This document shows positions 1,197 through 54,890 of a DNA stretch of 64,000 bases, in pieces (position 1 is the stretch's first letter; each line of letters opens with the position of its first letter). Source of the DNA: Candidatus Subterrananammoxibius californiae (GTDB lineage: Bacteria > Planctomycetota > Brocadiia > Brocadiales > Subterrananammoxibiaceae); contig JAURAC010000015.1 in the NCBI GenBank assembly GCA_030586555.1, positions 9,820-73,819 on the forward strand, in the 5' to 3' direction. The notes beneath the pieces were generated by a model. The model was not told the DNA's origin, made no database searches, and worked only from the letters and a program-made list of their open reading frames with translations. A program made the translations under genes and the position numbers.

Positions 1197-2798
1197 TTAT
1201 ATTCTTTTAAAAAGCAAGAATTTTATGGCTGCCCATATTATTCCAAGCCCTTTTGCTGGCATAACGGTAACCACTAAAAGCCTGTCATCCTTAAAATGCT
1301 CTTTTACTGCACAGGTAATTTGCTCTGTTGAAATTTTATCTATTTCTTGAAGAAAGGTATCTATGGTAGGACAGACATTCCTGTCTGTCCTACCACTACT
1401 ACCAGAAACACTCCAATGGATGTATATAGATGCCCTGAATTCATTACTCTCAAAATTAATCCTGAGCTTTCCAATGGTCTCGCTTTTTGCAATCGTCAAT
1501 TCATCCTCCGATGTTGGAGTACTCTTCATCTTTTCAATCTCTGAAAGAACTATCTCCTCTAGCCTTTTTAAATTATCAGGATGTGTGCCGATGACGAATC
1601 CCCAGATGCCAATGTCAGAAAGTGAAGCAAGCTCTTGCAAGCCAAAATCCTCCGCAGAAATAAAGAAATCGCTCAACCCTTCTTCCTTTAGCTTATGGTA
1701 GAGACGTGAATTTTTGCCGGGTCCGAGGATAGAGTAAAGTAACCGCATCGCATGCTTTTCTATGTCCTTTTCCCCATCCGTTCGCACAATCAAGGCAAAA
1801 TAACCCTGTTTGGTAAGGGTTTTGAGCTTAATCCCCCTTTTTCCCCCTTTGTAAAAGGGGGATTTAGGGAGCTTGAAATGCGGTATTGAAAAGGATTTAT
1901 CAGGTAAAGGGCTCTTTTCCTTATTAGAGAAAATCTTTTCTACCTCGCTTAAAGCAATTTCCGTATCTATTCCTCCCACGATAACCACAGTCATGTTGTT
2001 GGGTATATAGTAGGTTTGGTAGAACTCTCTAATTCTGTCAAAACTGATTGTTTTTATGGACAAGGTTGTTCCAGCTATTGGACGACCTAATGGGTTATCG
2101 GGAATCACCCTGTTAATAAGGCTGTAGTAGGCAATGGCGAAAGGATTATTCTTTGTAAAAGCTATCTCATGCAGGATAACCTTCTTTTCCAGATTGATAC
2201 CCCTTCTATTAAAACATGGTTCAAGGACAAGCCTCGAAAGCCCTCCCAATACATTTTTAAACTCCGACGCAGGCGCTGTCACGTAGTATCTTGTGTACTC
2301 AAAAGTGGTACTGCCATTAAGGATACCGCCTGATGACCTGATTTGATTAAAAATTTCATCCCTTTCTGCATCACATTGAATTGCTGCCTCGTTATCGTAT
2401 GGTGGCCACCAGTCCTCACGAAAAAGGATGTGCTCTATAAGATGCGAAATGCCGTTAAGACCTTCGGGTTCGTAACGAGAGCCTACGCTGACTATGATTG
2501 AGCAATGTACAGTAGTGCTTCCCGGTCTTTCATCCACAATAATCCGCAATCCATTTTTCGTGATAATCTCGGTAAGTTTGGACGTGGGTTCTTCAGATAG
2601 CGTGCGTTGCGCTTCAATGCCAGACTGGCTGCGTGTCTCCTCACTAAAGACAGGCATCTCCCCCAGAGGGAGGAGGTAGACAACGATGTTTATCATCGTT
2701 GAAATCAACGAACATAAAGTTCGTTGTCTACCGTTTCCCGATTTAAATAGGCATCCGAACAAAAAGGGCTTCGTAACTTTACACGTATAGTTGTTCAT
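1197..2798 (-). CDS. M16 (pitrilysin/insulinase family) zinc peptidase
   Basis: HLIEH inverted zincin motif, NGSTT, YYIPNNM; start uncertain (2798, 2696 or 2657); carries palindromic inserts. Confidence 0.9.
   Translation of the reverse strand: MNNYTCKVTKPFLFGCLFKSGNGRQRTLCSLISTMINIVVYLLPLGEMPVFSEETRSQSGIEAQRTLSEEPTSKLTEIITKNGLRIIVDERPGSTTVHCSIIVSVGSRYEPEGLNGISHLIEHILFREDWWPPYDNEAAIQCDAERDEIFNQIRSSGGILNGSTTFEYTRYYVTAPASEFKNVLGGLSRLVLEPCFNRRGINLEKKVILHEIAFTKNNPFAIAYYSLINRVIPDNPLGRPIAGTTLSIKTISFDRIREFYQTYYIPNNMTVVIVGGIDTEIALSEVEKIFSNKEKSPLPDKSFSIPHFKLPKSPFYKGGKRGIKLKTLTKQGYFALIVRTDGEKDIEKHAMRLLYSILGPGKNSRLYHKLKEEGLSDFFISAEDFGLQELASLSDIGIWGFVIGTHPDNLKRLEEIVLSEIEKMKSTPTSEDELTIAKSETIGKLRINFESNEFRASIYIHWSVSGSSGRTDRNVCPTIDTFLQEIDKISTEQITCAVKEHFKDDRLLVVTVMPAKGLGIIWAAIKFLLFKRI
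1365..1394. repeat. GTAG-ended 30-bp palindrome inside M16 peptidase
   Basis: GGTAGGACAGACA-TTCC-TGTCTGTCCTACC, encodes GRTDRNVCPT. Confidence 0.85.
1832..1869. repeat. Family E C/G-rich hairpin repeat inside M16 peptidase
   Basis: TCCCCCTTTTTCCCCCTTTGTAAAAGGGGGATTTAGGG; relatives at about 4333, 22579, 33027, 37172, 50067. Confidence 0.75.
2675..2732. repeat. Family A REP-like doublet
   Basis: GGTAGACAACGA..TCGTTG-AAAT-CAACGAAC..GTTCGTTGTCTACC; 9 loci in window. Confidence 0.9.
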
Positions 2799-2809
2799 TA
2801 TTTTGTAGA

Positions 2810-2838
2810 ATTGTAGTTTCTCAAAAATGTTTTGTCAA
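2810..2838 (-). promoter_or_regulatory. Putative sigma70 promoter for M16 peptidase
   Basis: TTGACA-N17-TACAAT on minus strand just upstream of ATG 2798. Confidence 0.55.
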
Positions 2839-2912
2839 TAATTAAGGAACGTGTTGATGAGCACTTTCCTTCGTAAAACCCATGATAGGGCTGAATGGCA
2901 AGGCGAAAAAAC

Positions 2913-2941
2913 TTGACAGTACCTACATCTTTTGCTATCTT
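2913..2941 (+). promoter_or_regulatory. Putative sigma70 promoter
   Basis: TTGACA-N17-TATCTT with extended -10 TG. Confidence 0.5.
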
Positions 2942-3163
2942 TATACCCTATTAGTGTGGAAAATTATAGAATGTTTCAATTCGTCCAGGAAGAAGGTTTC
3001 ATCAAAAGATTTAACCTTATGATTCTTACAACCCTCTGTTAAGAAATCAGTATCCAAAACTCTTTTATAAAAGGGAGGATAAAAAAGGAGGTGATGTGAT
3101 GTATGGTAATAATAGATGTTGAATATTGACAAGGCACTTTTCTATAATAAAGGAGGTTAAGTC

Positions 3164-4716: not shown

Positions 4717-4774
4717 GGTAGACAACGAACTTTATGTTCGTTGAAGTCAACGAGGTAAAACCTCATTGTCTACC
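4717..4774. repeat. Family A REP-like doublet
   Basis: GGTAGACAACGAACTTTATGTTCGTTGAAGTCAACGAGGTAAAACCTCATTGTCTACC. Confidence 0.9.
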
Positions 4775-7254: not shown

Positions 7255-7361
7255 AACAAAATTGTAGGGGCAGACCTATGTGTCTGCCCCAAAAAGGGCG
7301 AACACGCAGGTTCGCCCCTACATCCTCCCCCCAAGGGGAGAGGGATGGATGAGGGGTGACA
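7255..7361. repeat. Left copy of ~105-bp direct repeat (family B doublet + C/G hairpin)
   Basis: Nearly identical to 8554-8660. Confidence 0.9.
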
Positions 7362-8553: not shown

Positions 8554-8660
8554 AACAAAATTGTAGGGGCAGACCTATGTGTCTGCCCCAAAAAGGGCGA
8601 ACACGCAGGTTCGCCCCTACATCCTCTCCCCCAAGGGGAGAGGGAAGGGTGAGGGGGACA
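8554..8660. repeat. Right copy of ~105-bp direct repeat
   Basis: Nearly identical to 7255-7361. Confidence 0.9.
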
Positions 8661-12848: not shown

Positions 12849-14837
12849 ATGAAGAAATGGGTAGGTGTTTCTGGAGTGATAATAATGTTGTTTTCAGGAA
12901 TCTGCCTTGAGGTGTGGGCTGATACCCTGGAGATAGAGAAAGAAATGCCAGTAGAAGAACTTTTCTTTATGGAGATTCCAATTGTGGTAACGGCTGCGAG
13001 GAAAGAGCAGAGCCAGTTTGAGACGGCGTCAGCCACTTATGTCATTACCGCGGAAGACATCCGTCGTTCTGGTGCCACGACCATACCAGAACTGTTGCGC
13101 ATGGTACCCGGCCTCAACGTGGCGCAAATTAGTGCCAGCGAATGGGCAATTAGCTCCAGGGGCTTCCTATTCCTCAAGCGCTTTTCCGGCGAACTGTTGG
13201 TGATGATTGACGGACGCAGTGTCTATACCCCCCTATTCGCCGGGGTATACTGGGACGTACAGGATACCTTGCTGGAGGATATAGAACGCATCGAGGTAGT
13301 CCGAGGTCCAGGCGGTACCTTATGGGGAGCTAATGCTGTAAATGGTGTGATTAACATCATCACCAAAAGTGCAAAGGACACGCAAGGTGGACTGTTCCAT
13401 GCCGGTTACGGGGACCGCGAAGAAGGCTTCGGCGCTGTGCGTTATGGTTTGGAAATGGGCAATGATGTTTATCTCCGCGCCTATGCAAAGTATTTCAACC
13501 GTGATGACTTCGTAGGTGGCAACGACCAGTGGCAGGCACAACGCGGGGGTTTCCGACTGGATTGGGATATCTCCTATCAGGATGCACTCACAGTGATGGG
13601 GGATTATTATGATGGCAGGGCTGACCAGACCGTTTCTCTAACCTCATTATCTCCACCAGCCGTTTTATTGACTGACGACACAAGGGACTTACACGGGGGT
13701 AATGTGTTGCTGCGGTGGCAGCGCCGCCCATCGGAGGAGTCGGATATTATACTGCAAGCCTATTTTGACAATGCTGAGCGTGAGGAGAAAACCCTGGATC
13801 AGCGCATAGACACCTACGACCTCGACTTTCAGCACCGTTTTCTCCTGGGAGAACGCCAGGAGATAACATGGGGTATGGGCTATCGCCTGGTAGCGGATAA
13901 GCTCAGGGGCAGCTTCGACATTTCGCTTGACCCGGAGGAACGGCAAACACAGCTTTTTAGTACATTTTTGCAGGACCAGATTACAGTCATGGAGAATTTA
14001 TGGCTAACTCTTGGGTCAAAGTTTGAGCATAACGATTTCACCGGATTTGAGATTCAGCCCAGCGGCAGATTCCTGTGGCAACCGCTGCCGCGCCATGCCC
14101 TATGGGGCGCCATCTCACGTGCCGTTAGAACTTCTTCTCGGGCAGATAACAACATTAGGACCAACCTCGCAGCGTTTCCCGGCGGGGGCGGCGTGCCGGC
14201 ACTCGTTTCTGTTTTCGGTAACGATGGCACGGAGTCTGTAGACCTGCTTGCCTATGAGATTGGTTACCGTTATCAATTCTCACAAAGACTTTCCCTGGAC
14301 GTTACGGGGTTTTACAATATCTACGACAATCTCTTTACTGTAGAGCCGGGCGTCCCTGTTTTCGAAATCGAACCATCACCCCCACACCTGCTCATTCCTT
14401 CTTTTTTAGACAACTTAATGGACGGGGAGACCTATGGTGTTGAGACGGCTGCTAACTGGCAGGCAATGCGGAACTGGCGGTTGAGTTCGAGCTTTACACA
14501 ACTAAACATGCAGTTACATTTAGATTCTGATAGTAAAGACGGAAACAGGGATGCTCTTGTAGAGGGGGCCAACCCTGAACATCAGTTCCAGATTCGCTCC
14601 TATCTTAACCTACCCTACAACCTGGAGCAAGATACAGCGGTGTACTATGTTTCCAGGCTTTACAAGCCTGAGGTTTCCGGTTACACACGCATGGACATGC
14701 GTCTGGGATGGCATCCAAGGAATAACCTTGAATTGAGCCTGTCTCTGCAGAACCTGCTTGATAATCACCATCCGGAATTCTCTGACGTGAGCGAAGTGCC
14801 TCGCAGTGTTTATGCAAAGATTACATTTAAGTGGTAA
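12849..14837 (+). CDS. TonB-dependent receptor (copy 1)
   Basis: Plug motifs IPELLRMVPG, IERIEVVRGPG...GVINIITK; terminal aromatic residue. Confidence 0.95.
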   Translation: MKKWVGVSGVIIMLFSGICLEVWADTLEIEKEMPVEELFFMEIPIVVTAARKEQSQFETASATYVITAEDIRRSGATTIPELLRMVPGLNVAQISASEWAISSRGFLFLKRFSGELLVMIDGRSVYTPLFAGVYWDVQDTLLEDIERIEVVRGPGGTLWGANAVNGVINIITKSAKDTQGGLFHAGYGDREEGFGAVRYGLEMGNDVYLRAYAKYFNRDDFVGGNDQWQAQRGGFRLDWDISYQDALTVMGDYYDGRADQTVSLTSLSPPAVLLTDDTRDLHGGNVLLRWQRRPSEESDIILQAYFDNAEREEKTLDQRIDTYDLDFQHRFLLGERQEITWGMGYRLVADKLRGSFDISLDPEERQTQLFSTFLQDQITVMENLWLTLGSKFEHNDFTGFEIQPSGRFLWQPLPRHALWGAISRAVRTSSRADNNIRTNLAAFPGGGGVPALVSVFGNDGTESVDLLAYEIGYRYQFSQRLSLDVTGFYNIYDNLFTVEPGVPVFEIEPSPPHLLIPSFLDNLMDGETYGVETAANWQAMRNWRLSSSFTQLNMQLHLDSDSKDGNRDALVEGANPEHQFQIRSYLNLPYNLEQDTAVYYVSRLYKPEVSGYTRMDMRLGWHPRNNLELSLSLQNLLDNHHPEFSDVSEVPRSVYAKITFKW

Positions 14838-14945
14838 GGAACGACTTAACTGCAAGAGGGAAGAAATGAGACTTGACCTCATTAATTAGAAAAATGTGTC
14901 CGTTGAAATTGTTGGTATTTCATATTAGAAGGAAAGGAGTGCCTA

Positions 14946-25661: not shown

Positions 25662-25719
25662 GGTAGACAACGAACTTTATGTTCGTTGAAATCAACGATG
25701 GTAAACATCGTTGTCTACC
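25662..25719. repeat. Family A doublet overlapping 3' end of marR-like gene
   Basis: Encodes terminal VDNDVYHR and the stop codon. Confidence 0.9.
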
Positions 25720-35421: not shown

Positions 35422-35484
35422 GGTAGACAACGAGGTTCTACCTCGTTGACATTTGTTCAACGAACATAAAGTTCGTTGTCTACC
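35422..35484. repeat. Family A doublet
   Basis: GGTAGACAACGAGGTTCTACCTCGTTG...CAACGAACATAAAGTTCGTTGTCTACC. Confidence 0.9.
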
Positions 35485-36131: not shown

Positions 36132-36725
36132 ATGTCGCTTGAAAGAATAACAAAGTCAATATTAGATGACGCTGAGAAAGAGGCGGCGAGGATACTTCAT
36201 GCAGCACAAGCAGCCATCCAGCGCAAAATTGCTTCTGTTAGAGAAGAACTTAAAAAAAATCTAATCGAAAGGTTAAAAGATGTAGAGGTAGAAATTGAGG
36301 AGAAAAAGGCAATAGAACTTTCTAATCTAAGAACAAGTTACAGGCAGCAGATTCTTGAAATTAAGAATACCGTAATTGATGACGTTTTCAAAAGGGCTGT
36401 GCAGCAAATTGTTTCTCTTTCCGATGAAAGGTATCTTTCTATTATAGAAAAATGGCTTCAAGCAATTAGTACAACGGGGCAGATTTTTATAAGCTCAAAG
36501 GATTCAAAACGAATCACCTATGAGTTTATTTCAAGGATTAATCAATCGAGAAAGGAATCCTCAAGTCTTTCCCTGAGCAAGGATTTCGCTAATATAAGTG
36601 GTGGGTTTATGCTGAAGACAGAAAAGTTTGAGATTGACCACTCCCTTGAGGCAATTTCATTGAATCTGCGTGAGCGACTCGGACCCAAAATTGCAAAAGA
36701 ATTATTCAGAGAGCAGACTTGGTAG
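36132..36725 (+). CDS. ntpE: V/A-type ATPase subunit E
   Basis: MSLERITKSILDDA, ISGGF, IAKELF; stop supplied by repeat. Confidence 0.88.
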   Translation: MSLERITKSILDDAEKEAARILHAAQAAIQRKIASVREELKKNLIERLKDVEVEIEEKKAIELSNLRTSYRQQILEIKNTVIDDVFKRAVQQIVSLSDERYLSIIEKWLQAISTTGQIFISSKDSKRITYEFISRINQSRKESSSLSLSKDFANISGGFMLKTEKFEIDHSLEAISLNLRERLGPKIAKELFREQTW

Positions 36726-36788
36726 ACAACGAGGTTTTATCCGCCTCAGACGGATTGATTTCAACGGACATAAAGTCCGTTGTCTACC
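36721..36788. repeat. Family A doublet with inserted TCCGCCTCAGACGGA hairpin
   Basis: GGTAGACAACGAGGTTTT-ATCCGCCTCAGACGGAT-TGATTTCAACGGACATAAAGTCCGTTGTCTACC. Confidence 0.85.
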
Positions 36789-36802
36789 GACAGAAGAACC
36801 CT

Positions 36803-38189: not shown

Positions 38190-38267
38190 GCTTGCAAGGA
38201 GATGTTATATGGACATAATAATATAAATTTAACCAAAGTAACTTTTAAATGGAAAGGAGATCCAGAA

Positions 38268-38802: not shown

Positions 38803-38866
38803 AAAATAAAAAGATTTTTTTTACAAAAGGGTTACTATTGAGCTTGTATTGAGTGAAGCAAACGTG

Positions 38867-42625: not shown

Positions 42626-42633
42626 TCAACAAT

Positions 42634-42690
42634 GGAGACAACGAGGTTTAGTCTTGTTGAAATCAACGAACATAAAGTTCATTATCTACC
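42634..42690. repeat. Degenerate family A doublet
   Basis: GGAGACAACGAGG...TCAACGAACATAAAGTTCATTATCTACC. Confidence 0.75.
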
Positions 42691-42718
42691 AATTACTAAA
42701 GTATGAGGAGACAAAATC

Positions 42719-43213
42719 ATGCACCAATTATTTATTGTTATTCCTGTAGCTGTTTTTGTTATTGCCTTAGTTGTTTTTGTTCTTTATAGAAGGCGGACGC
42801 GTGCTGGCAAGTCAGAGGGCGTTACTCAAAAACGTGAATATTTCAGGGCGGACGTGCTTGAACCGGAGGCATTTATCGTCATAATTGAACTTGATGCTGG
42901 CAGCCTTACCGGATGCAGGCTAATGAATATTAGTATAGGTGGCGCTGGTATATTGGCTGTTCGGCATCCGATTGTTCTTGAAATAGGTTCGAGGATAAAA
43001 GAGATTAAGGTTGTGTTTCCGAGTGGCGAAGAAATAAGGTCTTCGGCAATTGTAAAGCATGCTTTAAGAGAATCCGATTCTGACTGGAATAGGTATGGGA
43101 TACAATTTACAGACCTATCAGATGCTCAAAGCAGTATTGTGGCAAAATACGTAGTTCAGCTTGAAGCTAAAAAGATTAAAGAGCAGCGAACCGTGCCAAC
43201 TAAGGAAGGGTAG
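42719..43213 (+). CDS. Membrane-anchored PilZ-domain protein
   Basis: N-terminal TM; QKREYFR and NISIGG c-di-GMP motifs; YGIQF. Confidence 0.88.
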   Translation: MHQLFIVIPVAVFVIALVVFVLYRRRTRAGKSEGVTQKREYFRADVLEPEAFIVIIELDAGSLTGCRLMNISIGGAGILAVRHPIVLEIGSRIKEIKVVFPSGEEIRSSAIVKHALRESDSDWNRYGIQFTDLSDAQSSIVAKYVVQLEAKKIKEQRTVPTKEG

Positions 43214-43262
43214 ACAACGAGGTTTTACCTCGTTGAATCAACGAACATAAAGTTCGTTGTCC
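43209..43262. repeat. Family A doublet supplying PilZ stop codon
   Basis: GG-TAG-ACAACGAGGTTTTACCTCGTTGAATCAACGAACATAAAGTTCGTTGTC. Confidence 0.88.
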
Positions 43263-43273
43263 ACGGAATAGAA

Positions 43274-45703: not shown

Positions 45704-45734
45704 AGGTTATGGGTTATAGGCATAGGTTATAGAT

Positions 45735-45766
45735 GGGTGGCATGGACAAACTTGTTTGTCCGTGCC
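45735..45766. repeat. Family C element, intergenic
   Basis: Identical core to 45112 copy. Confidence 0.9.
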
Positions 45767-45774
45767 GTTAGTAT

Positions 45775-46500
45775 TTAATGTTTTCCAAGCAGTGGTACAA
45801 AGCGCACCGGAAGCACGTTTTTGACGATTATCTTTTCATCCTTGTCCTTCATTACAAGCATGAGATTTTGAACTTGATATACAGTACCTATTGGAATAGC
45901 CATCCTTCCACCTGGTTTAAGCTGCTGTATAAGTGGCGGAGGGATATGATTTGCCGCCGCAGTAACGATAATGGCGTCAAAAGGTGCGTGTTCAGGCAAG
46001 CCGAAATATCCATCTCCAACCTTCACCGCAACGTTGGAATATTTCATCTCCTCAAGCCTTTTTTTTGCCTTTATGCCCAGTTCCTCGATGATTTCAATGG
46101 TATAAACCTGTTTAACAATCTTTGAGAGCACGGCTGCCTGATACCCTGAGCCCGTTCCAATCTCAAGCGCCACAGAATTACCATCAACCTCCAATAACTC
46201 CGTCATTAATGCAACGATATAAGGTTGCGATATTGTCTGGCCGCATCCAATTGGCACTGGCTGGTCCTCGTAACCGTAATTTTTGTATTCCTCTGGTACG
46301 AACAAATGACGCGGAATGTTTCTCATGGCGTCGAGCACCTTTGGGTCCTTAACACCCCGCGCTGCAATCTGCCCCTCAACCATCTCTAACCTTTGCCGTG
46401 TGTATTTATCCTCAGACGTGGTGGCATGGACAAACTTGTTTGTCCGTGCAGCTAAAAGGATGGTTAATATTATTAAAGCATAACAAGCAATAATTTTCAT
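45775..46500 (-). CDS. pcm: Protein-L-isoaspartate O-methyltransferase with N-terminal signal/anchor
   Basis: PRHLFVP, GQTISQPYIVA, LEIGTGSGYQAA, PFDAIIVTAA, FVPL. Confidence 0.95.
   Translation of the reverse strand: MKIIACYALIILTILLAARTNKFVHATTSEDKYTRQRLEMVEGQIAARGVKDPKVLDAMRNIPRHLFVPEEYKNYGYEDQPVPIGCGQTISQPYIVALMTELLEVDGNSVALEIGTGSGYQAAVLSKIVKQVYTIEIIEELGIKAKKRLEEMKYSNVAVKVGDGYFGLPEHAPFDAIIVTAAANHIPPPLIQQLKPGGRMAIPIGTVYQVQNLMLVMKDKDEKIIVKNVLPVRFVPLLGKH
46420..46449. repeat. Family C element inside pcm
   Basis: GGTGGCATGGACAAACTTGTTTGTCCGTGC encodes ARTNKFVHAT. Confidence 0.9.
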
Positions 46501-46564
46501 AACTTATTACCTATCTTTTACTATAAATAAATTGAAGCAGTCTTTCAAGCCATTTTAATTTTTT

Positions 46565-46645
46565 GGTGGCACGGACAAATTTATTTGTCCGTGTATTTGG
46601 TAAAAAGGGAGGGACACAGACAAGCAAGGCTTGTCCATGCCACCC
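46565..46645. repeat. Family C inverted doublet
   Basis: GGTGGCACGGACAAATTTATTTGTCCGTG ... CACAGACAAGCAAGGCTTGTCCATGCCACCC. Confidence 0.8.
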
Positions 46646-46670
46646 TGCTGTATTTTCGCAGTATTATCTT

Positions 46671-47273
46671 TCAATCCCACATCCAGTGCATCTTTTCCCA
46701 CAACCACTCAAAAAAGTGTAACTCTCTCAGTATCAATATTGTCAACGCAATCCCTGTCGCAACCAATTTCCAAACCTTTTTGAATGTTGATGCAATCTTC
46801 CCACCTTTCCCAGCCTGTGCAGGGAATAAGGTCTTCCGATATTTGACTAATTGTTTTGTTGCTTCACTTTCCGCCTCAGTAGGGGTTTTGAATCCAGCCA
46901 AAGAGTAAGCTTCCCTGCAAGAATAGCCGTTGGTAATTTCTACAGCATAAGGCTTATTTTTTCGCCCTAAAGGTACATCATCACGCCAGCTATTCACCCA
47001 GCTTGGCTGTTCTGTATATTCTTCCCTGTAACCAGAAAATTTTAACCTGAAAGGTTCGCAATTTACTTTGAGGGACAAGCGATTGATTTCTTGTAGGACT
47101 GTTACAAACTCCTTATCGCACTCCTTGTCTCTATTCAAGAGACCTTGTTTATCCTCTTGAAACCCAAAATGATCTTTGATTACACTGACAAACAAGTTTA
47201 CGTATTGTTCACATTTAGAGTTTAATACTTTGACAGGTTTTTCTTGATTTGACACGCGTTGTTCTCCTAACAA
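46671..47273 (-). CDS. Hypothetical protein with C-terminal TM
   Basis: 200-codon ORF with TTG start, no recognisable motif. Confidence 0.45.
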   Translation of the reverse strand: MLGEQRVSNQEKPVKVLNSKCEQYVNLFVSVIKDHFGFQEDKQGLLNRDKECDKEFVTVLQEINRLSLKVNCEPFRLKFSGYREEYTEQPSWVNSWRDDVPLGRKNKPYAVEITNGYSCREAYSLAGFKTPTEAESEATKQLVKYRKTLFPAQAGKGGKIASTFKKVWKLVATGIALTILILRELHFFEWLWEKMHWMWD

Positions 47274-47418
47274 CTCTCCAAGGTGAATAGTGAGGCAGGT
47301 GGTAGAGATTGCTACTTTTTAGTATTACACTATCTCACTTACCTTTTAAACTATATAGATTGAAACAGGGTTTCAAAATATTTTAACCTTTATGGTGGGC
47401 TTTATCAATAGCTGAACA

Positions 47419-47449
47419 GCACGGACAAATGAATTTGTCCATGCCACCC
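47419..47449. repeat. Family C element
   Basis: GCACGGACAAATGAATTTGTCCATGCCACCC. Confidence 0.85.
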
Positions 47450-47470
47450 TGCCTACTCAAGACTCATGAC

Positions 47471-48190
47471 TCACAACTCATACGACTCTTTTGCAATCTC
47501 TAATATTTTATCAATGTTTACTGTGGAGGCGAGGAGGTCGCCTATTTTGTGGTATGATTCAATTTGAGGGCAGGGAAACCCTGCCCCTACTTCATGACTG
47601 GTAACAAGGCCAAGATGTCTTTCTGGGATGGTAATTTTTGTGTCTTTAGGCAGGTAACCAAGTAGGGGCACGTTGCAACGTGCCCCTACATAACTCCTAA
47701 TCGCCTCAAAATGTTCTTTACTCCCAATATTATTTAAGATAACCCCTGCTATTTTTACCTCCGGGTCAAAATTTATATACCCAAGCACTACAGCCCCGGC
47801 GCTCCTCGCCATGCCTTTTGCATCCACGATCAGTATTACAGGTGTTCTTAGTATCTTTGCCAGATGTGCACTGCTTCCAGCTTCTCCATCAATTAAATGA
47901 CCATCGTAAAGCCCCATCACACCTTCAATGATAGATATATCTGCCTTCGCTGCGGCACGCTTAAAGAGTTTGATACATACATCACCCCCCATTATCCATG
48001 TATCAAGATTGCGTGACGGAATGCCTGTAACGGCAGTGTGATGTCCAGGGTCAATGTAATCGGGACCCACCTTGAAGCCTTGAACTTTATAGCCTCTTTG
48101 TGTAAGGGCAGACATTAGCCCGAGGGTAACTGTGGTCTTACCCACACCGCTGTGTGTGCCTGCAATCATTAATCGGAGAAGTTTATTCAT
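47471..48190 (-). CDS. cbiA: Cobyrinate a,c-diamide synthase, synthetase domain only (no glutaminase domain)
   Basis: SGVGKTT, FKVGPDYID, EGVMGLYDG, PERHLGL; about 240 aa versus about 450 for the family. Confidence 0.85.
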   Translation of the reverse strand: MNKLLRLMIAGTHSGVGKTTVTLGLMSALTQRGYKVQGFKVGPDYIDPGHHTAVTGIPSRNLDTWIMGGDVCIKLFKRAAAKADISIIEGVMGLYDGHLIDGEAGSSAHLAKILRTPVILIVDAKGMARSAGAVVLGYINFDPEVKIAGVILNNIGSKEHFEAIRSYVGARCNVPLLGYLPKDTKITIPERHLGLVTSHEVGAGFPCPQIESYHKIGDLLASTVNIDKILEIAKESYEL

Positions 48191-48207
48191 TTTTAGAATA
48201 CTTGTAC

Positions 48208-48237
48208 CACGGACAAACAAGTTTGTCCATGCCACCC
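48208..48237. repeat. Family C element between cbiB and cbiA
   Basis: CACGGACAAACAAGTTTGTCCATGCCACCC. Confidence 0.9.
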
Positions 48238-48242
48238 AGTTT

Positions 48243-49229
48243 TTAATGTTTTACAAGCCTTGCAATAGTTAGTACGGTACATGCCAGAGTAACTGCTATT
48301 ATAGAGGCTGCGTAAAGAATTTTAATGGCAACTCTGAGCTTTTCGGTGGTTAATGGCTCCAGGTCATCCCCAATGAAGGGCTTATCGCACAATTCGCCAT
48401 TATACGTGCTGGGCCCGCCCAGTTGAACGCCGAGCGCTCCGGCATAAGCAGCCTCAGGGATACCGCTATTAGGACTTGGATGTTTGCGACCGTTTCTAAT
48501 GATTATGTAAAAAGATTTCTGGAAATTTGTCCCGCAAAAATATGCTGCAAAGGGTAAGAACCTCGCTGCTATTCTGGCAGGGATATAGTTTGCAAGGTCA
48601 TCAAGCCTCGCTGATGCCCAGCCAAATTTCAAATACTTTTCGTTCTTATATCCCACCATAGAATCAAGTGTGTTTACCGCTTTGTAAGCCATAGCGAGTG
48701 GGGGACCACCAATGGCTGCATAAAACAGCGGCGAAAAGAATCCATCCACGGTGTTTTCAGCTACGCTCTCTATGCAAGCCCTGATTATCTGCTCCTCATT
48801 AAGACGTTTGGTATCCCTCCCAACAATCCTTGATAGGTTAGAGCGAGCCTTATCAATGTCGCCAGCTTCTAATGCCCTGAGTACGCTTTGCGCCTCTACC
48901 GCAAGACCACGAACGGAGAAGGTATAGTAAAGTATAATAGTGCCAACGATAACATCAACCGTATCGTGCAATCCACCAAGTACGGATGTAATCAAATATG
49001 TTGTTAGATATGTTCCTGTTACTATGATAAAAGTTAAGATTAGTCCTGAAATCCTTTCGGGAATCCACAACTGTCTTAGTTTTTGTTCAAGGAACATAAT
49101 TGCCTTTCCGATAATTCTTACGGGGTGAGGCGATGTTTCGCTTCGCTCAATCTTCGACTCTACAGTATCACCACCTAAAAGTTCGACCATGTAAGCAATC
49201 ATTATTTCAATTGGCAGAAATTGGGACAT
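48243..49229 (-). CDS. cbiB: Adenosylcobinamide-phosphate synthase
   Basis: HPVRIIG, IVGRDT, ESVAEN, NTLDSMVGY, SPNSG. Confidence 0.95.
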   Translation of the reverse strand: MSQFLPIEIMIAYMVELLGGDTVESKIERSETSPHPVRIIGKAIMFLEQKLRQLWIPERISGLILTFIIVTGTYLTTYLITSVLGGLHDTVDVIVGTIILYYTFSVRGLAVEAQSVLRALEAGDIDKARSNLSRIVGRDTKRLNEEQIIRACIESVAENTVDGFFSPLFYAAIGGPPLAMAYKAVNTLDSMVGYKNEKYLKFGWASARLDDLANYIPARIAARFLPFAAYFCGTNFQKSFYIIIRNGRKHPSPNSGIPEAAYAGALGVQLGGPSTYNGELCDKPFIGDDLEPLTTEKLRVAIKILYAASIIAVTLACTVLTIARLVKH

Positions 49230-49276
49230 TAGTCCTCCTGTCATTGCGAGCGACTAAAAGGAGCGAAGCAATCTCC

Positions 49277-50839
49277 TTATTTTAAACCCAGCCTCTTATA
49301 AATTAAATTCATCTTGATATTATTCCTGACGATATCAGCCAGATTATCGTAATGTATTTCCTTTTTATGTGCTGTGAGATTCTTCTCTTCACTCAGCATG
49401 ATAGAAAGGGGGGAAAGACCCTTTTTCTTACGGAGAAAGTTTATAAGTTGGGAACGAAACTCGTCATTATCAAATATTCCATGAAAATAGGTTCCCCAGT
49501 GCATGCCGTCATGTGAAACTGCTCCGTCAGGCACATCCACAGGCTTATCCGAACGTTCTGTAATACGCAATAACGGTCTTATACCATTATTCAAAATAGT
49601 TCTACCCATGTGGATTTCATAGCCCGTAAGTGTATTCTGTGTGCTGAATAGCAGGGTGTCTGGAAGCAAATTTGCCTTTGCCTGATAGGTGCATTTTTCT
49701 GGTAGGAAGGTTGTGGTGACATCAAGAAGCCCCATTCCTTGAATCCTTGCATGGTTTGATTCAACACACTCCACGTCCAGAATCTCCTTACCCATCATTT
49801 GATAACCTCCGCATATTCCAATTATCATAGTAGGGGCGTGGCGTGCCGTGTCCCTACATTTAATAATAGCATTTTCAAGCCCATTAGCACGAATCCACAA
49901 CAGGTCGCCTATGGTATTCTTTGTCCCCGGCAGGATAATCACATCAGGGTTTCCTAAACCGTTAGTATCATCAACGTATCTAATACTCACGCCATTATGA
50001 TGCTCAAACGAATCGAAATCTGTAAAGTTTGAGATTCTTGGGAGTTTAATTATCGCAATGTCAATAATCTCCCCTTGCCCCCCTTTAGCAAAGGGGGGTA
50101 CAGGGGGATTATTATCAAGCGATACAGAATCCTCGTCATCTATGCTCAGACCATTAATAAAAGGAACAAGTCCTAAGACCTGCTTGCCTGTACGCCTTTC
50201 GAGCATATCTATACCCGGTTGCAATATTGCCGGGTCGCCTCTGAACTTATTAAAAACAATGCCAAATATGTGATTCCTTTCTGTCTCATTCAATAGCTCG
50301 AAGGTTCCCACAATCCATGCAAAGGCGCCGCCCCTGTCTATATCCGTTACAAGGACAACCGGGGCATCTGCAATCTCCGCCATCTTCATATTTACTATAT
50401 CGTTTTCCTTTAGATTAATCTCAGCAGGGCTTCCGGCTCCTTCTATCACGATTATGTCAAACTGGCTTGCTAAGGTATTATAAGCATCCTTTACAATGAC
50501 AAGCATTTCGCCCTTACACTTATAATATTCCTGTGCAGACATATTTCTCAGGGGCTTTCCCATGACAACCACTTGAGAGCCGCAATCTCCAATAGGCTTT
50601 AACAGGATGGGGTTCATCTCAACCATCGGGTCCACACCCGCCGCCTCTGCCTGAGCTACCTGAGCGCGCCCCATTTCCTTGCCATCCTTTGTTACAAAGG
50701 AATTGAGCGACATATTCTGTGCCTTAAATGGGGCAACACGATACCCATCTTGTGAAAGGATACGGCACAAGGCACATGCAATTATGCTTTTACCAACGTT
50801 TGAACCCGTACCTTGAATCATCAGGGATTTTGCTCGCAT
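49277..50839 (-). CDS. cbiP: Cobyric acid synthase
   Basis: GTGSNVGKS, FKAQNMS, EGAGSPAEINL, GICGGYQM, GTYFHG. Confidence 0.96.
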   Translation of the reverse strand: MRAKSLMIQGTGSNVGKSIIACALCRILSQDGYRVAPFKAQNMSLNSFVTKDGKEMGRAQVAQAEAAGVDPMVEMNPILLKPIGDCGSQVVVMGKPLRNMSAQEYYKCKGEMLVIVKDAYNTLASQFDIIVIEGAGSPAEINLKENDIVNMKMAEIADAPVVLVTDIDRGGAFAWIVGTFELLNETERNHIFGIVFNKFRGDPAILQPGIDMLERRTGKQVLGLVPFINGLSIDDEDSVSLDNNPPVPPFAKGGQGEIIDIAIIKLPRISNFTDFDSFEHHNGVSIRYVDDTNGLGNPDVIILPGTKNTIGDLLWIRANGLENAIIKCRDTARHAPTMIIGICGGYQMMGKEILDVECVESNHARIQGMGLLDVTTTFLPEKCTYQAKANLLPDTLLFSTQNTLTGYEIHMGRTILNNGIRPLLRITERSDKPVDVPDGAVSHDGMHWGTYFHGIFDNDEFRSQLINFLRKKKGLSPLSIMLSEEKNLTAHKKEIHYDNLADIVRNNIKMNLIYKRLGLK

Positions 50840-52783
50840 TTAATGCACTCCAAAAATATTTTTTAGCTCTTTGAGGAGTCTGAGGTTTTCGTCCCTCGTT
50901 CTAACTGCAATCCGAAAGTATTGCTCATCGAGGCCCCTGAAATTTGAGCAATCACGAATAACTAAACCACTTTTTATCAATTGAGTATAAAGATTGGAAA
51001 CCTGCAGATTGGGTCTATCAATTCTTACTAACATAAAATTTGCTGAGGGATAAAAAGGATAGAGTCCTTCTATCCGTGAAATCTGCTCATATAGAAAGCG
51101 CTTCTCTGCCGAGATAAACATTCTGCTTCGCTTTATAAAGTCCTCGTCATTCATTGCTGCCTTCCCGGCGAGTTGTGCAATGGCATTTACCGTCCATGGC
51201 TCCTTAAATCTTTTTATTCTATCTACTATTGTTTCATGTGCAACAAGAAAACCGAGCCTTAGACCAGGCATGCCAAAAAATTTTGTTAACGAGCAAATAA
51301 CCACAAGATTTTTAATTTTGCCTGCATCCTTTAGGACGCTGTAAGATTCTTGTTCCTCAACAAAATTCATAAATGACTCATCAACAACGATTGTTGCATT
51401 GGCAAAGTATTCAGCCAAATCTAATATCCTTACCCTTTCAGTGAGTTGGCTGGTTGGGTTATTCGGGTTGCACAAGAAAATTAAGGCAGGAGGGGAACCG
51501 TTCAGTTTTGCATAATCAAGGCTGAATTGGAATGAAGTCTTTTCATTCAAGATAATCTCAGATGCCTCAGTGTGAACAAGTTGCAAGGCATTAATGTAGT
51601 CACTGAACGTGGGCTGAAATACCAGCGCTTTCCTCGGGTGTAATGTACGAGGCGTTAAATAAATAAGCTCTGTTGAACCATTGCCTACAATAATCTCGCA
51701 TTCTCTGTGGCAAGTCTTTTCTGCAATAATATGTTTCAATTCAGCACAATCAGTATCGGGATAATGAAGGATTGTGTCGGACACATTACGAATGGCATCC
51801 TGCACACTTTTTGAATATCCGAGTGGATTAATACTTGCGCTAAAGTCCAGAATATTCTCTGGTTTTAGCCCATAGGTTGCACAAATCTTTGTGATATTGC
51901 CACCGTGACCGTCTACCGAAGGCTGAGGGCTGAAGGCTGAAGGCTGAGGGCTGAAGGAGATAGGAAGCATTTTTACCAATAAATTACGCGCCTGTCCTAT
52001 TGTAAGAGGCAAATCTTCTATATGCACATCCTGTCGAAGAAGGGTAAATAACTGGGCAATCTGAGGAAGTTCAAGTTTCGACGCCGTAACAATCTCTGGA
52101 ACTGCAAAGATGTCTTCAGGCTTACCCTCCGTGACAATCCTTCCAGAGTCCATAATAGCAATGTGGTTCATAAAGACTGGCACAAGGTCAACGTCATGGG
52201 TCGCCATGATTATGGTAATGCCTCGTTTCGCATTTAGATTTTTGAGAAGCTGCATTATAGAGGTAACGCCTGCAGGGTCGAGGTCGCTTGTTGGTTCATC
52301 CAGTACGAGCACATCTGGATTCATCGCAAGGATGCCAGCAATGCAAACCCTTTTGCGCTGACCGTGGCTGAGGTGGTGGATAGGTTTGCGAGCGTATGCA
52401 GTCATTTCAACTAATTTGAGCGCCATTTCTACCCTCGATTTTACTTCCTCTGGACTCAGCTTGAGATTCATAGGACCAAACGCCACATCCTGCTCAACCG
52501 TTAGGGCGAAAAGCTGGTCATTAGCGTCCTGGAATACCATACCGACCCGACTAAATATCTCAGCGGGTGGGATTGATTTTAAATCCCTCCCGTCTATTGC
52601 TACGCAGCCAATATCTGGCTTGAGAAGTCCGTTAAGGTGCTTAAGGAGAGTTGTTTTACCAGAGCCGTTGGGCCCCAATATGCCGAGAAATTCCCCCTTC
52701 TTAACCGTGATATTAACACCATTCAGCGCCTTTGTGCCATCGGGGTATGTGTATTGGAGATTTTCTACTTTGATTAAAGTCAT
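50840..52783 (-). CDS. Fusion: cobalt ECF ATPase CbiO + threonine-phosphate decarboxylase CobD
   Basis: GPNGSGKT, LSHGQ, LDEP; then HGGN, DFSASINP, CNPNNPT, SLTKFFGMPGLRLG. Confidence 0.9.
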   Translation of the reverse strand: MTLIKVENLQYTYPDGTKALNGVNITVKKGEFLGILGPNGSGKTTLLKHLNGLLKPDIGCVAIDGRDLKSIPPAEIFSRVGMVFQDANDQLFALTVEQDVAFGPMNLKLSPEEVKSRVEMALKLVEMTAYARKPIHHLSHGQRKRVCIAGILAMNPDVLVLDEPTSDLDPAGVTSIMQLLKNLNAKRGITIIMATHDVDLVPVFMNHIAIMDSGRIVTEGKPEDIFAVPEIVTASKLELPQIAQLFTLLRQDVHIEDLPLTIGQARNLLVKMLPISFSPQPSAFSPQPSVDGHGGNITKICATYGLKPENILDFSASINPLGYSKSVQDAIRNVSDTILHYPDTDCAELKHIIAEKTCHRECEIIVGNGSTELIYLTPRTLHPRKALVFQPTFSDYINALQLVHTEASEIILNEKTSFQFSLDYAKLNGSPPALIFLCNPNNPTSQLTERVRILDLAEYFANATIVVDESFMNFVEEQESYSVLKDAGKIKNLVVICSLTKFFGMPGLRLGFLVAHETIVDRIKRFKEPWTVNAIAQLAGKAAMNDEDFIKRSRMFISAEKRFLYEQISRIEGLYPFYPSANFMLVRIDRPNLQVSNLYTQLIKSGLVIRDCSNFRGLDEQYFRIAVRTRDENLRLLKELKNIFGVH

Positions 52784-52792
52784 TTTCAATTA

Positions 52793-52850
52793 GGTAGACA
52801 ACGAACTTTATGTTCGTTGATTTCAATGAGGATAAACCTCGTTGTCTACC
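52793..52850. repeat. Family A doublet
   Basis: GGTAGACAACGAACTTTATGTTCGTTGATTTCAATGAGGATAAACCTCGTTGTCTACC. Confidence 0.9.
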
Positions 52851-52871
52851 AAAAAAATTTTAAAGATTCTT

Positions 52872-53651
52872 TCAAATTAAGTTTATCAAACCAAAGGCTG
52901 AAAGAAAGGCTATCAAACCGCCAAGTATCACATAATCATTTCTTTTTAAGGGAGCAACGTTGGCTGTCAAAATACTGCCACCATCATATCCCCTTGACCG
53001 CATCGCCGTATGTGTTGATTCAGCCCTGCTTATAGTTCGAACCATGAGCATACCACCGAGCGTCCCAAAGGAATGAATGGTTTTTCTCCATGTCGAATAG
53101 CCCAGCCTGCACCTTTGTGCTGTACGCACCCTTGAGACCTCTTCCAAGAACAGGAATATGTACCTGTACATTAGAAAAAGTAATTCCAATAAAACCTCTG
53201 GAATCCTCAACCAGCGTGCCCCGGCGCACAAATCGGCAATTGTTGTAGTAAAAGAAAGCAGTAATATCAGAGAGATCCCACCCATAACCTTAAAAAATAT
53301 TAAACATCCAGCTTGTAGCCCTTCCCTTCTCAATATCAAGTCGTAGCCAAGAGGGGAGACGGAAAATACAGGTGTCTGACCTTCGTGCAGCCCCTTTATC
53401 ATCAAAATGAAGATAGCAAAAAATAGTGGCAAAAGCATGCGCAGGCTGAGTGTCTTAATAGGCGTCTTTATTGATAATAATAGACCGATGTTGATAAAGA
53501 AGAGTAATAATGGGGCAAGCATGCCTGAAGCGCATATATTCAAAATTAACCCACCAAAAACATAAAACATCTTTACCCTGGTCTCCGTACAGGTAAGCCA
53601 ATTTTCCCTATGAGCAAAATGGTCTGAAAATAGATAGCGTATATTTTCCAT
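52872..53651 (-). CDS. cbiQ: Cobalt ECF transporter T component
   Basis: LMYRYIF, AQRCRLGY, AMRSRGY. Confidence 0.92.
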   Translation of the reverse strand: MENIRYLFSDHFAHRENWLTCTETRVKMFYVFGGLILNICASGMLAPLLLFFINIGLLLSIKTPIKTLSLRMLLPLFFAIFILMIKGLHEGQTPVFSVSPLGYDLILRREGLQAGCLIFFKVMGGISLILLLSFTTTIADLCAGARWLRIPEVLLELLFLMYRYIFLFLEEVSRVRTAQRCRLGYSTWRKTIHSFGTLGGMLMVRTISRAESTHTAMRSRGYDGGSILTANVAPLKRNDYVILGGLIAFLSAFGLINLI

Positions 53652-53732
53652 GGAATTATTCCTTGCTTAAAGGCGAAAAGGTAAAAAAGAAAAAGGGTTT
53701 AAACCTCTTAGCCTCTTAACCTCTTAGCCTTT

Positions 53733-54047
53733 TTACCTTGACTTCATTAGCTTATGCCAGTTGTAGCCAATAATGAACCCGCCAATAGAGCCGCCGAGGG
53801 TAAACAAACATAGTAAAAGGTCTCCTCTATCAGTGTTAATGTAAGGGTTACGTGGCGGTCTTCCAAAGTTTGTTGCATATTTGCCTACAATACTTACGTC
53901 TATGCCCGTCCAGGCTTCTTGTTCCTCTGCCCCGCGTAGGGGCGTATTGTTAGCCACGGCGAATCTGCCTAAGGCATGACAATATGCCCCTACTATTGCT
54001 ATTGTTATCAATAAGAACGCCATTATAATTTTTTTAGATTTGCGCAA
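53733..54047 (-). CDS. Small cobalt transport accessory protein (CbiN-like)
   Basis: Two TMs, WTGIDVSIV, GDLLL..F; between cbiM and cbiQ. Confidence 0.7.
   Translation of the reverse strand: MRKSKKIIMAFLLITIAIVGAYCHALGRFAVANNTPLRGAEEQEAWTGIDVSIVGKYATNFGRPPRNPYINTDRGDLLLCLFTLGGSIGGFIIGYNWHKLMKSR
53936..53993. repeat. Family B element with nested 30-bp D1 element, inside cbiN-like gene
   Basis: GTAGGGGCGTATTG-[TTAGCCACGGCGAATCTGCCTAAGGCATGA]-CAATATGCCCCTAC. Confidence 0.9.
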
Positions 54048-54795
54048 TTGTTCTGCCCTCCGTTATGCCAAGTTCCACCAGAATGCTGGGACGATGATTG
54101 TAAACATAAGAGACTATAAAACCAGTTACGACACCTTCCAAAATGCACAGGGGTCCCTGCGTGGTCATCATAAAGGCTGCAAATATTTCTCCAGCAGCTT
54201 TAAAGAATGAATCGCCTTTGCCAACAACAAGCAAGCCTAACTCTATCGAAGTGCCCAGATATGTAAAAATATCAGCAACAATGCCTGCAAAAAATCCCCA
54301 CCAGAAAGGTGAAAGCCTTAGTTTCTTTGCAGTCCAGAAGGCAAAGTAACCAGAAAATGAGCCAAGTATGCCCATTGAAAATATGTTGCCACCCAATGTG
54401 GTCAACCCGCCATGGGCGAGAAATAATGCTTGGATTAATAGTGCAATCCCAGCGACAGGGACGCTCACAAATGGGCCAAGAAATATTGCGCTCATACCAG
54501 TTCCAGCAGGGTGCGCCGTTGCCATACCATTAAGGGCTATAACAGGAACGGGAAAACACGAGAACACAAAGACCGCCGCCCCAATCATCCCGATTAGGGG
54601 CATATAGCCCGGGATAGCCTTACGTCTCTTTTTAATCTTGTATGTCCCAATTGCTACAAAAGGTGCAGCCACTAAGAACCATAGAATTGCCCACTTTGGC
54701 GGCAGTATTCCTTCTGTAATGTGCATTGCATACACGGCATGAGGAAGGAATAAAAGGGTGAAGCCAACAAATATGATTGATAAGAGTCTTTTCAT
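54034..54795 (-). CDS. cbiM: Cobalt ECF transporter S component
   Basis: Signal peptide then MHITEG; QALFLAHGGLTTLGGN. Confidence 0.95.
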   Translation of the reverse strand: MKRLLSIIFVGFTLLFLPHAVYAMHITEGILPPKWAILWFLVAAPFVAIGTYKIKKRRKAIPGYMPLIGMIGAAVFVFSCFPVPVIALNGMATAHPAGTGMSAIFLGPFVSVPVAGIALLIQALFLAHGGLTTLGGNIFSMGILGSFSGYFAFWTAKKLRLSPFWWGFFAGIVADIFTYLGTSIELGLLVVGKGDSFFKAAGEIFAAFMMTTQGPLCILEGVVTGFIVSYVYNHRPSILVELGITEGRTIAQI

Positions 54796-54821
54796 TTTTT
54801 TACCTCTCTGGTTAATTAAAA

Positions 54822-54890
54822 TCAACGAACATAAAGCTCGTTGTCTACCCATCATTTTAGTTGGTAGACAACGAGGTTTTACCTCGTTGA
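54822..54890. repeat. Family A halves in the opposite (GTAG-inward) arrangement
   Basis: TCAACGAACATAAAGCTCGTTGTCTACC-N13-GGTAGACAACGAGGTTTTACCTCGTTGA. Confidence 0.85.

What the first reader, a model, noticed from the sequence alone, without database searches (positions are those of the whole stretch)
2675..54890. Family A: hetero-doublet of two different GTAG hairpins, 9 loci, in two topologies
Seen: each unit pairs GTAGA-CAACGAAC-TTTAT-GTTCGTTG with an inverted GTAGA-CAACGAGG-TTTTA-CCTCGTTG (variant CAACGATG), giving a Y-shaped fold closed by GGTAGA/TCTACC. Loci: 2675, 4717, 25662, 35422, 36721, 42634, 43209, 52793. At 54822-54890 the same halves lie GTAG-inward. Stem changes are often compensatory (GAAC/GTTC to GGAC/GTCC at 36721; GAGG/CCTC to GATG/CATC). 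Established: GTAG plus hairpin is the substrate signature of RAYT transposases, and doublets are REPINs. Inference: a structured mobile unit whose fold is under selection.
Basis: partly seen in the sequence, partly recalled or inferred. Interest (0 to 1): 0.7.

Follow-up and report, generated by a model that had tools for sequence, protein, structure and literature searches.

The report
Two-hairpin REP repeats of anammox bacteria
A short repeat made of two unlike DNA hairpins lies between genes at dozens of places in this genome and flanks a RAYT transposase gene in three related genomes, so it is likely a small mobile element of the well-known REP/BIME/REPIN kind, new only as a sequence family.

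Summary
All nine loci are real. Genome-wide, 192 of 219 halves have a partner nearby, against 7% of random sites. All 76 true GTAG-outward doublets join an A half to a B/C half. The same halves flank a RAYT transposase gene in three relatives (G088, G090, G014), so this is a REP family of BIME/REPIN type. No such RAYT was found in this genome's assembly. Covariation supports the two hairpins, but not the closing helix or the alternative rod. The Y fold is the main predicted ssDNA fold in 56 of 72 strands genome-wide, but at only 3 of 8 window doublets. Heterodimers and both topologies are already published (PMC3733652, PMC3333891). Extras: in-silico homodoublets lose both hairpins (72 of 72), and the RAYT block looks recently transferred between G088 and G090. 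The scan had noted double-foot REPs elsewhere in this genome (e1-2454445), but not this family. Verdict: new member of a known kind, modest interest.

The parts
2675..2732 (-). GTAG-outward doublet, A half (AAC subtype) plus C half (ATG subtype); upstream of an M16 peptidase gene
4717..4774 (+). GTAG-outward doublet A + B (one stem mismatch in B)
25662..25719 (+). GTAG-outward doublet A + C; the marR-family ORF (25692-26153, -) reads through the C half and stops inside the element
35422..35484 (-). GTAG-outward doublet A + B with a longer linker, between V/A-type ATPase subunit I and c genes
36721..36788 (-). GTAG-outward doublet, A half of the GAC subtype; B half broken by a nested palindrome (about 36740-36754); its GTAG supplies the stop codon of the ATPase subunit E ORF
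42633..42690 (-). decayed GTAG-outward doublet A + B (altered foot, several stem mismatches); no stable fold
43209..43265 (-). GTAG-outward doublet A + B, A foot GTGG; its GTAG supplies the stop codon of a PilZ-domain ORF; convergent gap
52793..52850 (+). GTAG-outward doublet A + B, between cbiQ and a cbiO-like ABC ATPase/aminotransferase ORF
54823..54848 (-). A half of the GTAG-inward doublet (one G.T wobble in the stem)
54849..54863 (.). 15-nt spacer between the two inward-facing GTAG feet (same length as the spacers beside the RAYT gene in G088, different sequence)
54864..54889 (+). B half of the GTAG-inward doublet, upstream of cbiM

Best explanation
This is a family of GTAG-type REP hairpins arranged as strict A+B doublets, likely a non-autonomous mobile element (BIME/REPIN type) copied by a RAYT (TnpA-REP) single-strand transposase. 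Shown: each half is GTAG-A, then a perfect 8-bp stem and a 4-5-nt loop. Outer stem and foot are shared by both halves; the inner stem and loop differ. In G088, G090 and G014 the RAYT gene sits between a B and an A half, with further doublets outside it, so the compact outward doublet looks like that locus without its gene. Inferred from E. coli and group-3 biochemistry: on single-stranded DNA the RAYT binds one GTAG hairpin per strand, cuts at the CT inside the partner's CTAC and rejoins strands. This would excise, insert (no target duplication) and reshuffle halves. Outward and inward doublets would be the two junction types of alternating A/B arrays, and either can spread. Predicted: partners must differ because identical halves 3-4 nt apart would fold into one perfect rod and hide both hairpins. 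In this genome the population is likely orphaned, or its RAYT lies on unassembled DNA.
For: RAYT flanked by the halves: L008/G088 has [A- 15 nt B+] RAYT [A- 15 nt B+]; L009/G090; L027/G014. The protein scores 96.8 bits on NF047646 REP_Tyr_transpos (cut-off 80) and below cut-off on the IS200 model. Its only PDB hit is 4ER8 TnpA-REP. It has HLH, Y-x3-NP and W-Q-x5-D-H-x2-R, matching the guide-binding residues described in PMC6006769. The three RAYTs fall in one clade (SH-aLRT 92, quick tree). Specificity: 3 of 30 related RAYT loci and 0 of 80 metagenome RAYT loci carry these hairpins. 76 of 76 true outward doublets are A+B; no target-site duplication above shuffled pairing. All four subtype combinations occur (41/12/12/11; Fisher p=0.016), fitting exchange of halves. 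Covariation in the two hairpins: 49 cells changed on both sides, 0 of 500 shuffles, against 2 cells and 232 of 500 for the rod. ssDNA folding: both hairpins dominant in 61 of 72 strands (36 compact elements of 78), in-silico homodoublets rods in 72 of 72. Inward doublets recur with shared spacers at separate loci in relatives. Decay as expected for REPs: broken-stem variants are mostly single copies, collapsed double-foot forms occur. Cleavage inside CTAC of the inverted partner is reported for E. coli in PMC3333891.
Against: No cognate RAYT found in G000: best tblastn identity 32%; 9 RAYT-like genes, nearest kept half 1.7 kb or more away. Only 3 of 18 genomes that carry the family had a cognate RAYT found with these queries (assemblies 72-97% complete). 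The closing helix has no compensatory change. As RNA the rod rivals the Y (34 against 38 of 72 strands). The prediction that homodimers need long spacers was not borne out clearly in other families: hetero in 14 of 15 loci at spacers up to 20 nt, 8 of 11 at 21-50 and 5 of 5 above 50, with one homodimer at 9 nt. The alignment for searches was hand-picked (36 doublets) and its rows are related, so shuffle counts overstate. No empty site for a doublet was seen.
Confidence: 0.85

Rival explanations
1. The doublets are kept mainly as RNA structures for the host (terminators or mRNA stabilisers), and the covariation reflects selection on an RNA fold.
For: Many copies lie close to a gene's 3' end: 44 of 70 measured ends are within 30 nt, and 17 stop codons fall inside an element (no background computed). 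Some stem changes are G.T wobbles (9 of 23 broken variants). Secondary RNA roles of REPs are established.
Against: No Rfam match at these loci. No orientation bias to transcription (27:27) and no excess in convergent gaps (8 of 70, background 171 of 1525 gaps). As RNA no single fold dominates. Association with a RAYT gene explains origin and conservation without it.
Confidence: 0.07
2. The halves are RAYT substrates, but hetero-pairing and covariation are historical or mutational: all copies descend from one A+B ancestor (the two ends of the RAYT locus), and template switching perfects the palindromes, with no selection on the fold. This differs from the best explanation only in the selection step.
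For: Within G000 the frequent paired changes are two subfamilies (GAC, ATG), plus two single copies. The RAYT locus itself has B at one end and A at the other. Spacer length does not clearly predict homo- against hetero-pairing in other families.
Against: Several different paired states occur across genomes at the same columns (AT, GC, TA, CG). Halves are reassorted among doublets (all four subtype combinations) yet never give A+A or B+B. Perfect-stem variants reach 23-52 copies while broken-stem variants stay at 1-3.
Confidence: 0.3
3. A MITE with 11-bp terminal inverted repeats moved by a classical DDE transposase.
For: The outward doublet has matching 11-nt inverted ends.
Against: No target-site duplication (73 of 78 with none, equal to shuffled pairs). 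Inward doublets and single halves exist. The halves flank an HUH/Y1 RAYT gene, not a DDE gene.
Confidence: 0.03
4. Operator sites of a dimeric transcription factor.
For: Palindromic, intergenic, and conserved outer arms.
Against: About 200 halves beside unrelated genes (ATPase, cobalamin, peptidase, marR). Covarying inner stems, nested insertions, and RAYT flanking.
Confidence: 0.02

Closest known systems
E. coli BIMEs and the REPtron (REP y with z1/z2, TnpA-REP/yafM, PDB 4ER8; PMC3333891, passages read)
   Same: [quoted passage not shown]
   Different: Stems here are perfect 8-bp palindromes without the bulge required by the E. coli enzyme. The linker is only 3-4 nt in most copies. Different sequence; the RAYT is distant (E 2.4e-8).
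REPINs with group-3 (subclass 2.5) RAYTs of Pseudomonas and Stenotrophomonas (PMC3116915, PMC8266576, bioRxiv 10.1101/2022.05.22.493013; passages read)
   Same: Short perfect GTAG hairpins, doublets over-represented, singlets as decayed remnants, several REP-RAYT systems per genome; the D in the guide-binding motif matches subclasses 2.5/2.7.
   Different: Typical REPINs are symmetric, about 70-110 nt apart, and described as one long hairpin. Here halves always differ and the ssDNA prediction is two separate hairpins. Subclass of this RAYT was not placed against reference sequences.
GTAG-1 to GTAG-24 repeat families (PMC3733652; section 5 and parts 3-4 of 8 read)
   Same: HH and TT dimers, heterodimers of elements with different stems, partners 1-5 bp apart in some families, GTAG giving stop codons, placement mostly between unidirectional genes.
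   Different: Neither GTAGA nor Kuenenia occurs in its main text. Its Figure 1 consensus list and supplements were not visible, so identity with a listed family cannot be fully excluded. In that paper TT spacers are as a rule variable; family f3 here has a semi-conserved 21-22-nt TT spacer.
'Double foot' REPs of subclass 2.4 (PMC6006769, passages read)
   Same: Collapsed single hairpins with GTAG and CTAC feet occur here too (C93, C104, C135), as expected from central deletion of a dimer.
   Different: Here they are 3 rare derivatives, not the main form.

Membership tests
GTAG REP elements | 5' GTAG tetranucleotide at the foot of a 20-50-nt palindrome | tested here: met
GTAG REP elements | high copy number, mostly intergenic | tested here: met
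   219 kept halves; 70 of 76 doublets between crude ORFs, 4 inside, 2 at contig edges
GTAG REP elements | cognate RAYT gene flanked by the same repeats (REPtron) | tested here: met
   in G088, G090, G014
REPIN-RAYT system | cognate RAYT in the same genome as the repeat population | tested here: inconclusive
   not found in G000 (96% complete, 150 contigs) by Pfam, tblastn or clade profile
REPIN | two inverted REPs forming the replicative unit (doublets over-represented) | tested here: met
   192 of 219 halves partnered against 6.9% of random sites
REPIN (symmetric type) | 5' and 3' REP identical, whole element folds as one hairpin | tested here: not met
   76 of 76 hetero; rod dominant in 10 of 72 ssDNA strands; no covariation for the rod
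BIME (E. coli type) | two different REP types in inverse orientation, H-H and T-T, tandem arrays | tested here: met
   arrays only as trimers in G000 and around the RAYT in relatives
Group-2 (E. coli) REP | conserved bulge in the stem | tested here: not met
   perfect stems in 79 of 86 A and 66 of 85 B halves
RAYT / TnpA-REP | HUH motif, Y-x3-NP, curated model score | tested here: met
   (protein from L008/L009, not from the window)
RAYT / TnpA-REP | binds and cleaves single-stranded cognate REP at CT/CA | not testable with these tools
   needs biochemistry
RAYT subclass (2.5 or 2.7) | placement in the published tree | not tested
   only the motif was compared with the text of PMC6006769
DDE-type MITE | target-site duplication | tested here: not met
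Rfam structured RNA | match at gathering score | tested here: not met
   4 hits in the window (2 cobalamin riboswitches, 2 tRNAs), none at the element

The most novel reading that the evidence does not exclude
This REP-RAYT system moves between distant lineages as a unit, and three stages of its life are visible. Fresh arrival: in G088 and G090 the RAYT plus a methyltransferase gene sit between trpB and trpA, are far more alike than the flanking genes, are missing from the closer relative G089, and all 5 halves of each genome lie at that locus. Established: G014. Orphaned bloom: G000. The compact doublet is a gene-less REPtron whose halves must differ so that both hairpins stay folded on single-stranded DNA. 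That would explain the long-unexplained preference for REP heterodimers and make it testable with one enzyme and four oligonucleotides.
Probability: 0.3. Interest if true: 0.55.

Novelty: new member of a known kind. Interest (0 to 1): 0.3.

Why it matters
It extends REP/BIME-RAYT systems to a sequence family in a group, likely the anammox order, where my searches found no description. It gives a very compact (56-58 nt) natural test substrate for two open points: why many REP dimers are heterodimers ('no obvious explanation' in PMC3733652), and whether RAYT loci move horizontally (said to be almost exclusively vertical in bioRxiv 10.1101/2022.05.22.493013, though horizontal acquisition was already suggested in PMC3686654). 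For this genome it explains about 200 intergenic palindromes, 17 altered gene ends and several mis-called start codons.

Tried and rejected
Search for a cognate RAYT in G000 by Pfam (7 hits), tblastn, single protein at 1e-20 (0 hits) and clade profile (9 hits): none flanked by the family. The C53 RAYT has a decayed look-alike about 380 nt upstream but carries other REPs and falls outside the clade. Contigs of four groundwater runs laid on the G088 RAYT locus at 80% likeness: no cover of the gene at the organism's depth, only a 187-nt piece at depth 2.9 in one run; a blank, not evidence. No RNA holder listed; no verdict on expression. Contigs laid on window 35200-55100 showed no empty-site joint among those listed; many rows were not shown and contigs drop rare alleles. 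The family-level genome search held only G000. Target-site duplication test negative. No CT/CA enrichment was apparent in the 12 flanking bases, apart from a G next to GTAG. The spacer-length test of the heterodimer idea was inconclusive. A covariance model and R-scape were not run; pair counts on a hand-picked alignment were used instead. The careful tree did not finish; the quick tree was used. Look-up of earlier findings by sequence found nothing. Supplements and figures of the cited papers were not seen and may list related REP consensus sequences.
Full report
Observation. The eight GTAG-outward doublets and the GTAG-inward pair are present as described; the repeat finder recovers them independently. 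The window is contig C34 of a 3.34-Mb, 150-contig genome, G000, the only held genome of its family. Named records with the same half are Brocadiales-type Planctomycetes, so I infer the anammox order. A scan for the three half types gave 189 halves against 1 in a shuffled genome. A foot-based scan gave 376 candidates; I kept the 219 that could be classed as A or B/C and dropped 157 (the shuffle gave 168 candidates, 9 classifiable). Of 78 outward pairs, 76 are A+B and 2 are collapsed single hairpins with two feet. With a relaxed partner rule, 192 of 219 halves are partnered against 6.9% of random sites. Inward pairs are rare in G000: 4 under the strict filter, 9 candidates under a looser one.

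Anatomy. Each half is G-GTAG-A, then CAACG plus three letters, a loop, and the complement. A halves carry AAC or GAC; B halves carry AGG or ATG. Stems are perfect in 79 of 86 A halves and 66 of 85 B halves among the 171 ungapped halves with up to 3 mismatches. Perfect-stem variants reach 23-52 copies, broken ones 1-3. About half the doublets are 55-58 nt; the rest have longer linkers or nested insertions. There is no target-site duplication. All four subtype combinations occur (41, 12, 12, 11; mild linkage, p=0.016), which fits exchange of halves or recurrent change. Against crude ORF calls, 70 of 76 doublets are intergenic, spread over tandem, convergent and divergent gaps like the background, with no orientation to transcription (27:27). 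17 stop codons fall inside an element. Rfam has no match at the loci.

Fold. With DNA energies both hairpins dominate in 61 of 72 strands (36 compact elements of 78), 56 with the foot closed; a long rod dominates in 10. With RNA energies it is 38 against 34. Homodoublets built in silico become rods in 72 of 72 and lose both hairpins. In the window only 3 of 8 doublets give a full Y on both strands. On a hand-picked alignment of 36 doublets from G000 and relatives, the two hairpins show 49 cells changed on both sides in 4 pairs, with 0 of 500 shuffles reaching that. The rod shows 2 cells, 232 of 500. The closing helix shows no compensatory change: it is a by-product of two inverted GTAG feet. 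Rows are related, so these counts overstate independence.

The transposase. G000 has 7 Pfam Y1_Tnp genes and 9 profile hits. Some are flanked by other REP families, none by this one; the best tblastn identity to the cognate protein is 32%. In G088 and G090 the halves flank a 162-aa gene that passes the curated cut-off for REP-associated tyrosine transposase (96.8 against 80 bits) and has 4ER8 as its only PDB hit. G088 reads [A- 15 nt B+] gene [A- 15 nt B+], with nearly the same spacer on both sides. G014 has a 58% identical RAYT with the same layout and a repeated 22-nt spacer. These are the only 3 of 30 RAYT loci from the class search with these hairpins; none of 80 more distant metagenome loci has them. 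The three cluster in a quick tree, far from the G000 RAYTs included. The gene lies between B and A with the GTAG feet outward, so the compact doublet is that locus without its gene.

Distribution. A looser pattern matches 12 of 132 genomes of the class: 140 matches in G000, 7-59 in eight genomes of family f3, and 3-4 in G017, G088 and G090. In a sample of 401 genomes of the phylum, 17 match. Most are single, chance-like hits, but G294, G498, G227 and G366, from other families outside the class, carry true doublets. Family f3 uses other inner stems (ACC; AAG, AAA, AAT) with the same A/B contrast. Inward doublets are common there with a semi-conserved 21-22-nt spacer, and other genomes repeat their own 11-14-nt spacers. 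So both topologies can spread. A cognate RAYT was found with these queries in 3 of the 18 genomes that carry the family. These are incomplete assemblies, and the gene is low in GC (33% against 44% for trpB) and repeat-flanked, so loss in binning is plausible.

A transfer signal. Between G088 and G090, trpB is 84% identical (64 of 119 fourfold sites differ) and trpA 82% (24 of 51). The RAYT is 96% (6 of 44) and the adjacent methyltransferase 96% (2 of 29) (p about 3e-6 for the RAYT alone). G089 is closer to G088 (trpB 92.7%) yet has trpB and trpA adjacent with no block. So do G064, G068 and G074; G091 has a lone B half and a different gene there. All 5 halves found in each of G088 and G090 lie at this locus. 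The simplest reading is recent horizontal movement of the block, possibly by recombination in the flanks rather than by the RAYT. Mis-assembly was not checked.

Mechanism. Shown: anatomy, pairing rule, hairpin covariation, RAYT association in relatives. From the literature: E. coli TnpA-REP binds the REP but not the inverted REP on single strands, cleaves at CT including inside the CTAC of the inverted partner, and recombines such sites (PMC3333891, passages). Group-3 enzymes use perfect short palindromes, with GTAG guiding CT/CA choice (PMC8266576, abstract, introduction and passages). Inferred: the same chemistry excises, inserts and reshuffles these doublets. Hetero-pairing likely keeps both hairpins available and avoids a perfect palindrome of about 27 bp per arm. 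The test of that idea in other families was inconclusive.

Comparison with what is known. PMC3733652 (section 5 and parts 3-4 of 8 read) already describes head-head and tail-tail dimers, heterodimers with different stems and stop codons from GTAG, and calls the heterodimer preference unexplained. PMC3333891 describes BIMEs of two REP types. PMC6006769 (passages) describes double-foot REPs and the guide-binding residues. PMC3116915 and bioRxiv 10.1101/2022.05.22.493013 and 10.1101/2021.07.10.451892 (passages) define REPINs and their decay after RAYT loss. PMC3686654 (passages) notes REP-rich genomes without cognate RAYT and likely horizontal acquisition. Hetero-pairs are also the rule around related RAYTs: 27 of the 31 loci with an outward pair, among 107 scanned. 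Four searches (listings only) found no paper on this family or on REPs of anammox bacteria; figures and supplements were not seen.

Verdict. A real, previously unlisted sequence family of a well-known kind. It works like a BIME/REPIN; it fails the tests for a symmetric REPIN and for a bulged group-2 REP. Interest 0.3. The in-silico case for obligatory hetero-pairing and the transfer signal are the parts worth a bench or phylogenomic follow-up.

Noticed in passing
window 36740-36754 and 43831-43843; 131 sites in G000: A 13-15-nt GC-rich palindrome occurs 131 times in the genome, only 10 near this family. Many sit inside the loops or arms of other REP-like hairpins and replace a few of their letters; at 36721 it breaks the B hairpin. 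It looks like a tiny element that targets hairpins; the full-text search listed no paper with it.
   Followed up: partly
G000 contigs C28, C80, C90, C128, C1, C47, C50, C61: Other recurring insertions sit inside the 3' arm of A or B halves (3 to 10 copies each, mostly confined to this family), forming subfamilies of interrupted doublets that still seem to have spread.
   Followed up: partly
window 36054, 45110-48237, 55879: A second REP family with GTGG feet (9 motif hits in the window, 150 in the genome); a RAYT gene flanked by it lies on G000:C150:44450-44968.
   Followed up: partly
window 6342, 7255-7338, 8554-8637, 47662, 49830, 63282: A third, double-foot GTAG family (18 motif hits in the window, 464 in the genome); a RAYT on G000:C59 has such a REP inside its reading frame.
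   Followed up: partly
L008:1500-2960, L009:950-2320, L162, L163: The trpB-trpA gap in family f5 is an insertion hot spot: RAYT plus methyltransferase in G088 and G090 (frameshifted in G088), a lone B half plus a secreted-protein gene in G091, empty in G089, G064, G068, G074.
   Followed up: yes
window 55688-55864 and 56038-56228 (-): Two tandem cobalamin riboswitches upstream of a cobalt-uptake and cobalamin operon (cbiM, cbiQ, cobQ, cobD); a GTGG-family REP lies between them.
   Followed up: no
window 50840-52789 (-): One 649-aa ORF joins an ABC ATPase (cbiO-like) to a class I/II aminotransferase (cobD-like) domain; fusion or mis-call not checked.
   Followed up: no
window 12849-16943 (+): Two tandem TonB-dependent receptor genes, 83-92% alike in long stretches: a recent duplication.
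   Followed up: no
window 33397-42625 (+) and 56356-58431 (-): A V/A-type ATPase operon holding three of the nine loci in its gaps, and a squalene-hopene cyclase gene.
   Followed up: no
window 54793-54810: Just outside the inward doublet, a short stretch resembling the loop and arm of a B half sits where the ribosome-binding site of cbiM would be; possibly a decayed third half. Weak.
   Followed up: no
G000:C136:1423-1758, C78:1046-1435, C21:41293-41682, C132:4604-5020: Further Y1 transposase genes flanked by non-GTAG inverted repeats, possibly the TIR-associated type described in PMC3733652.
   Followed up: no
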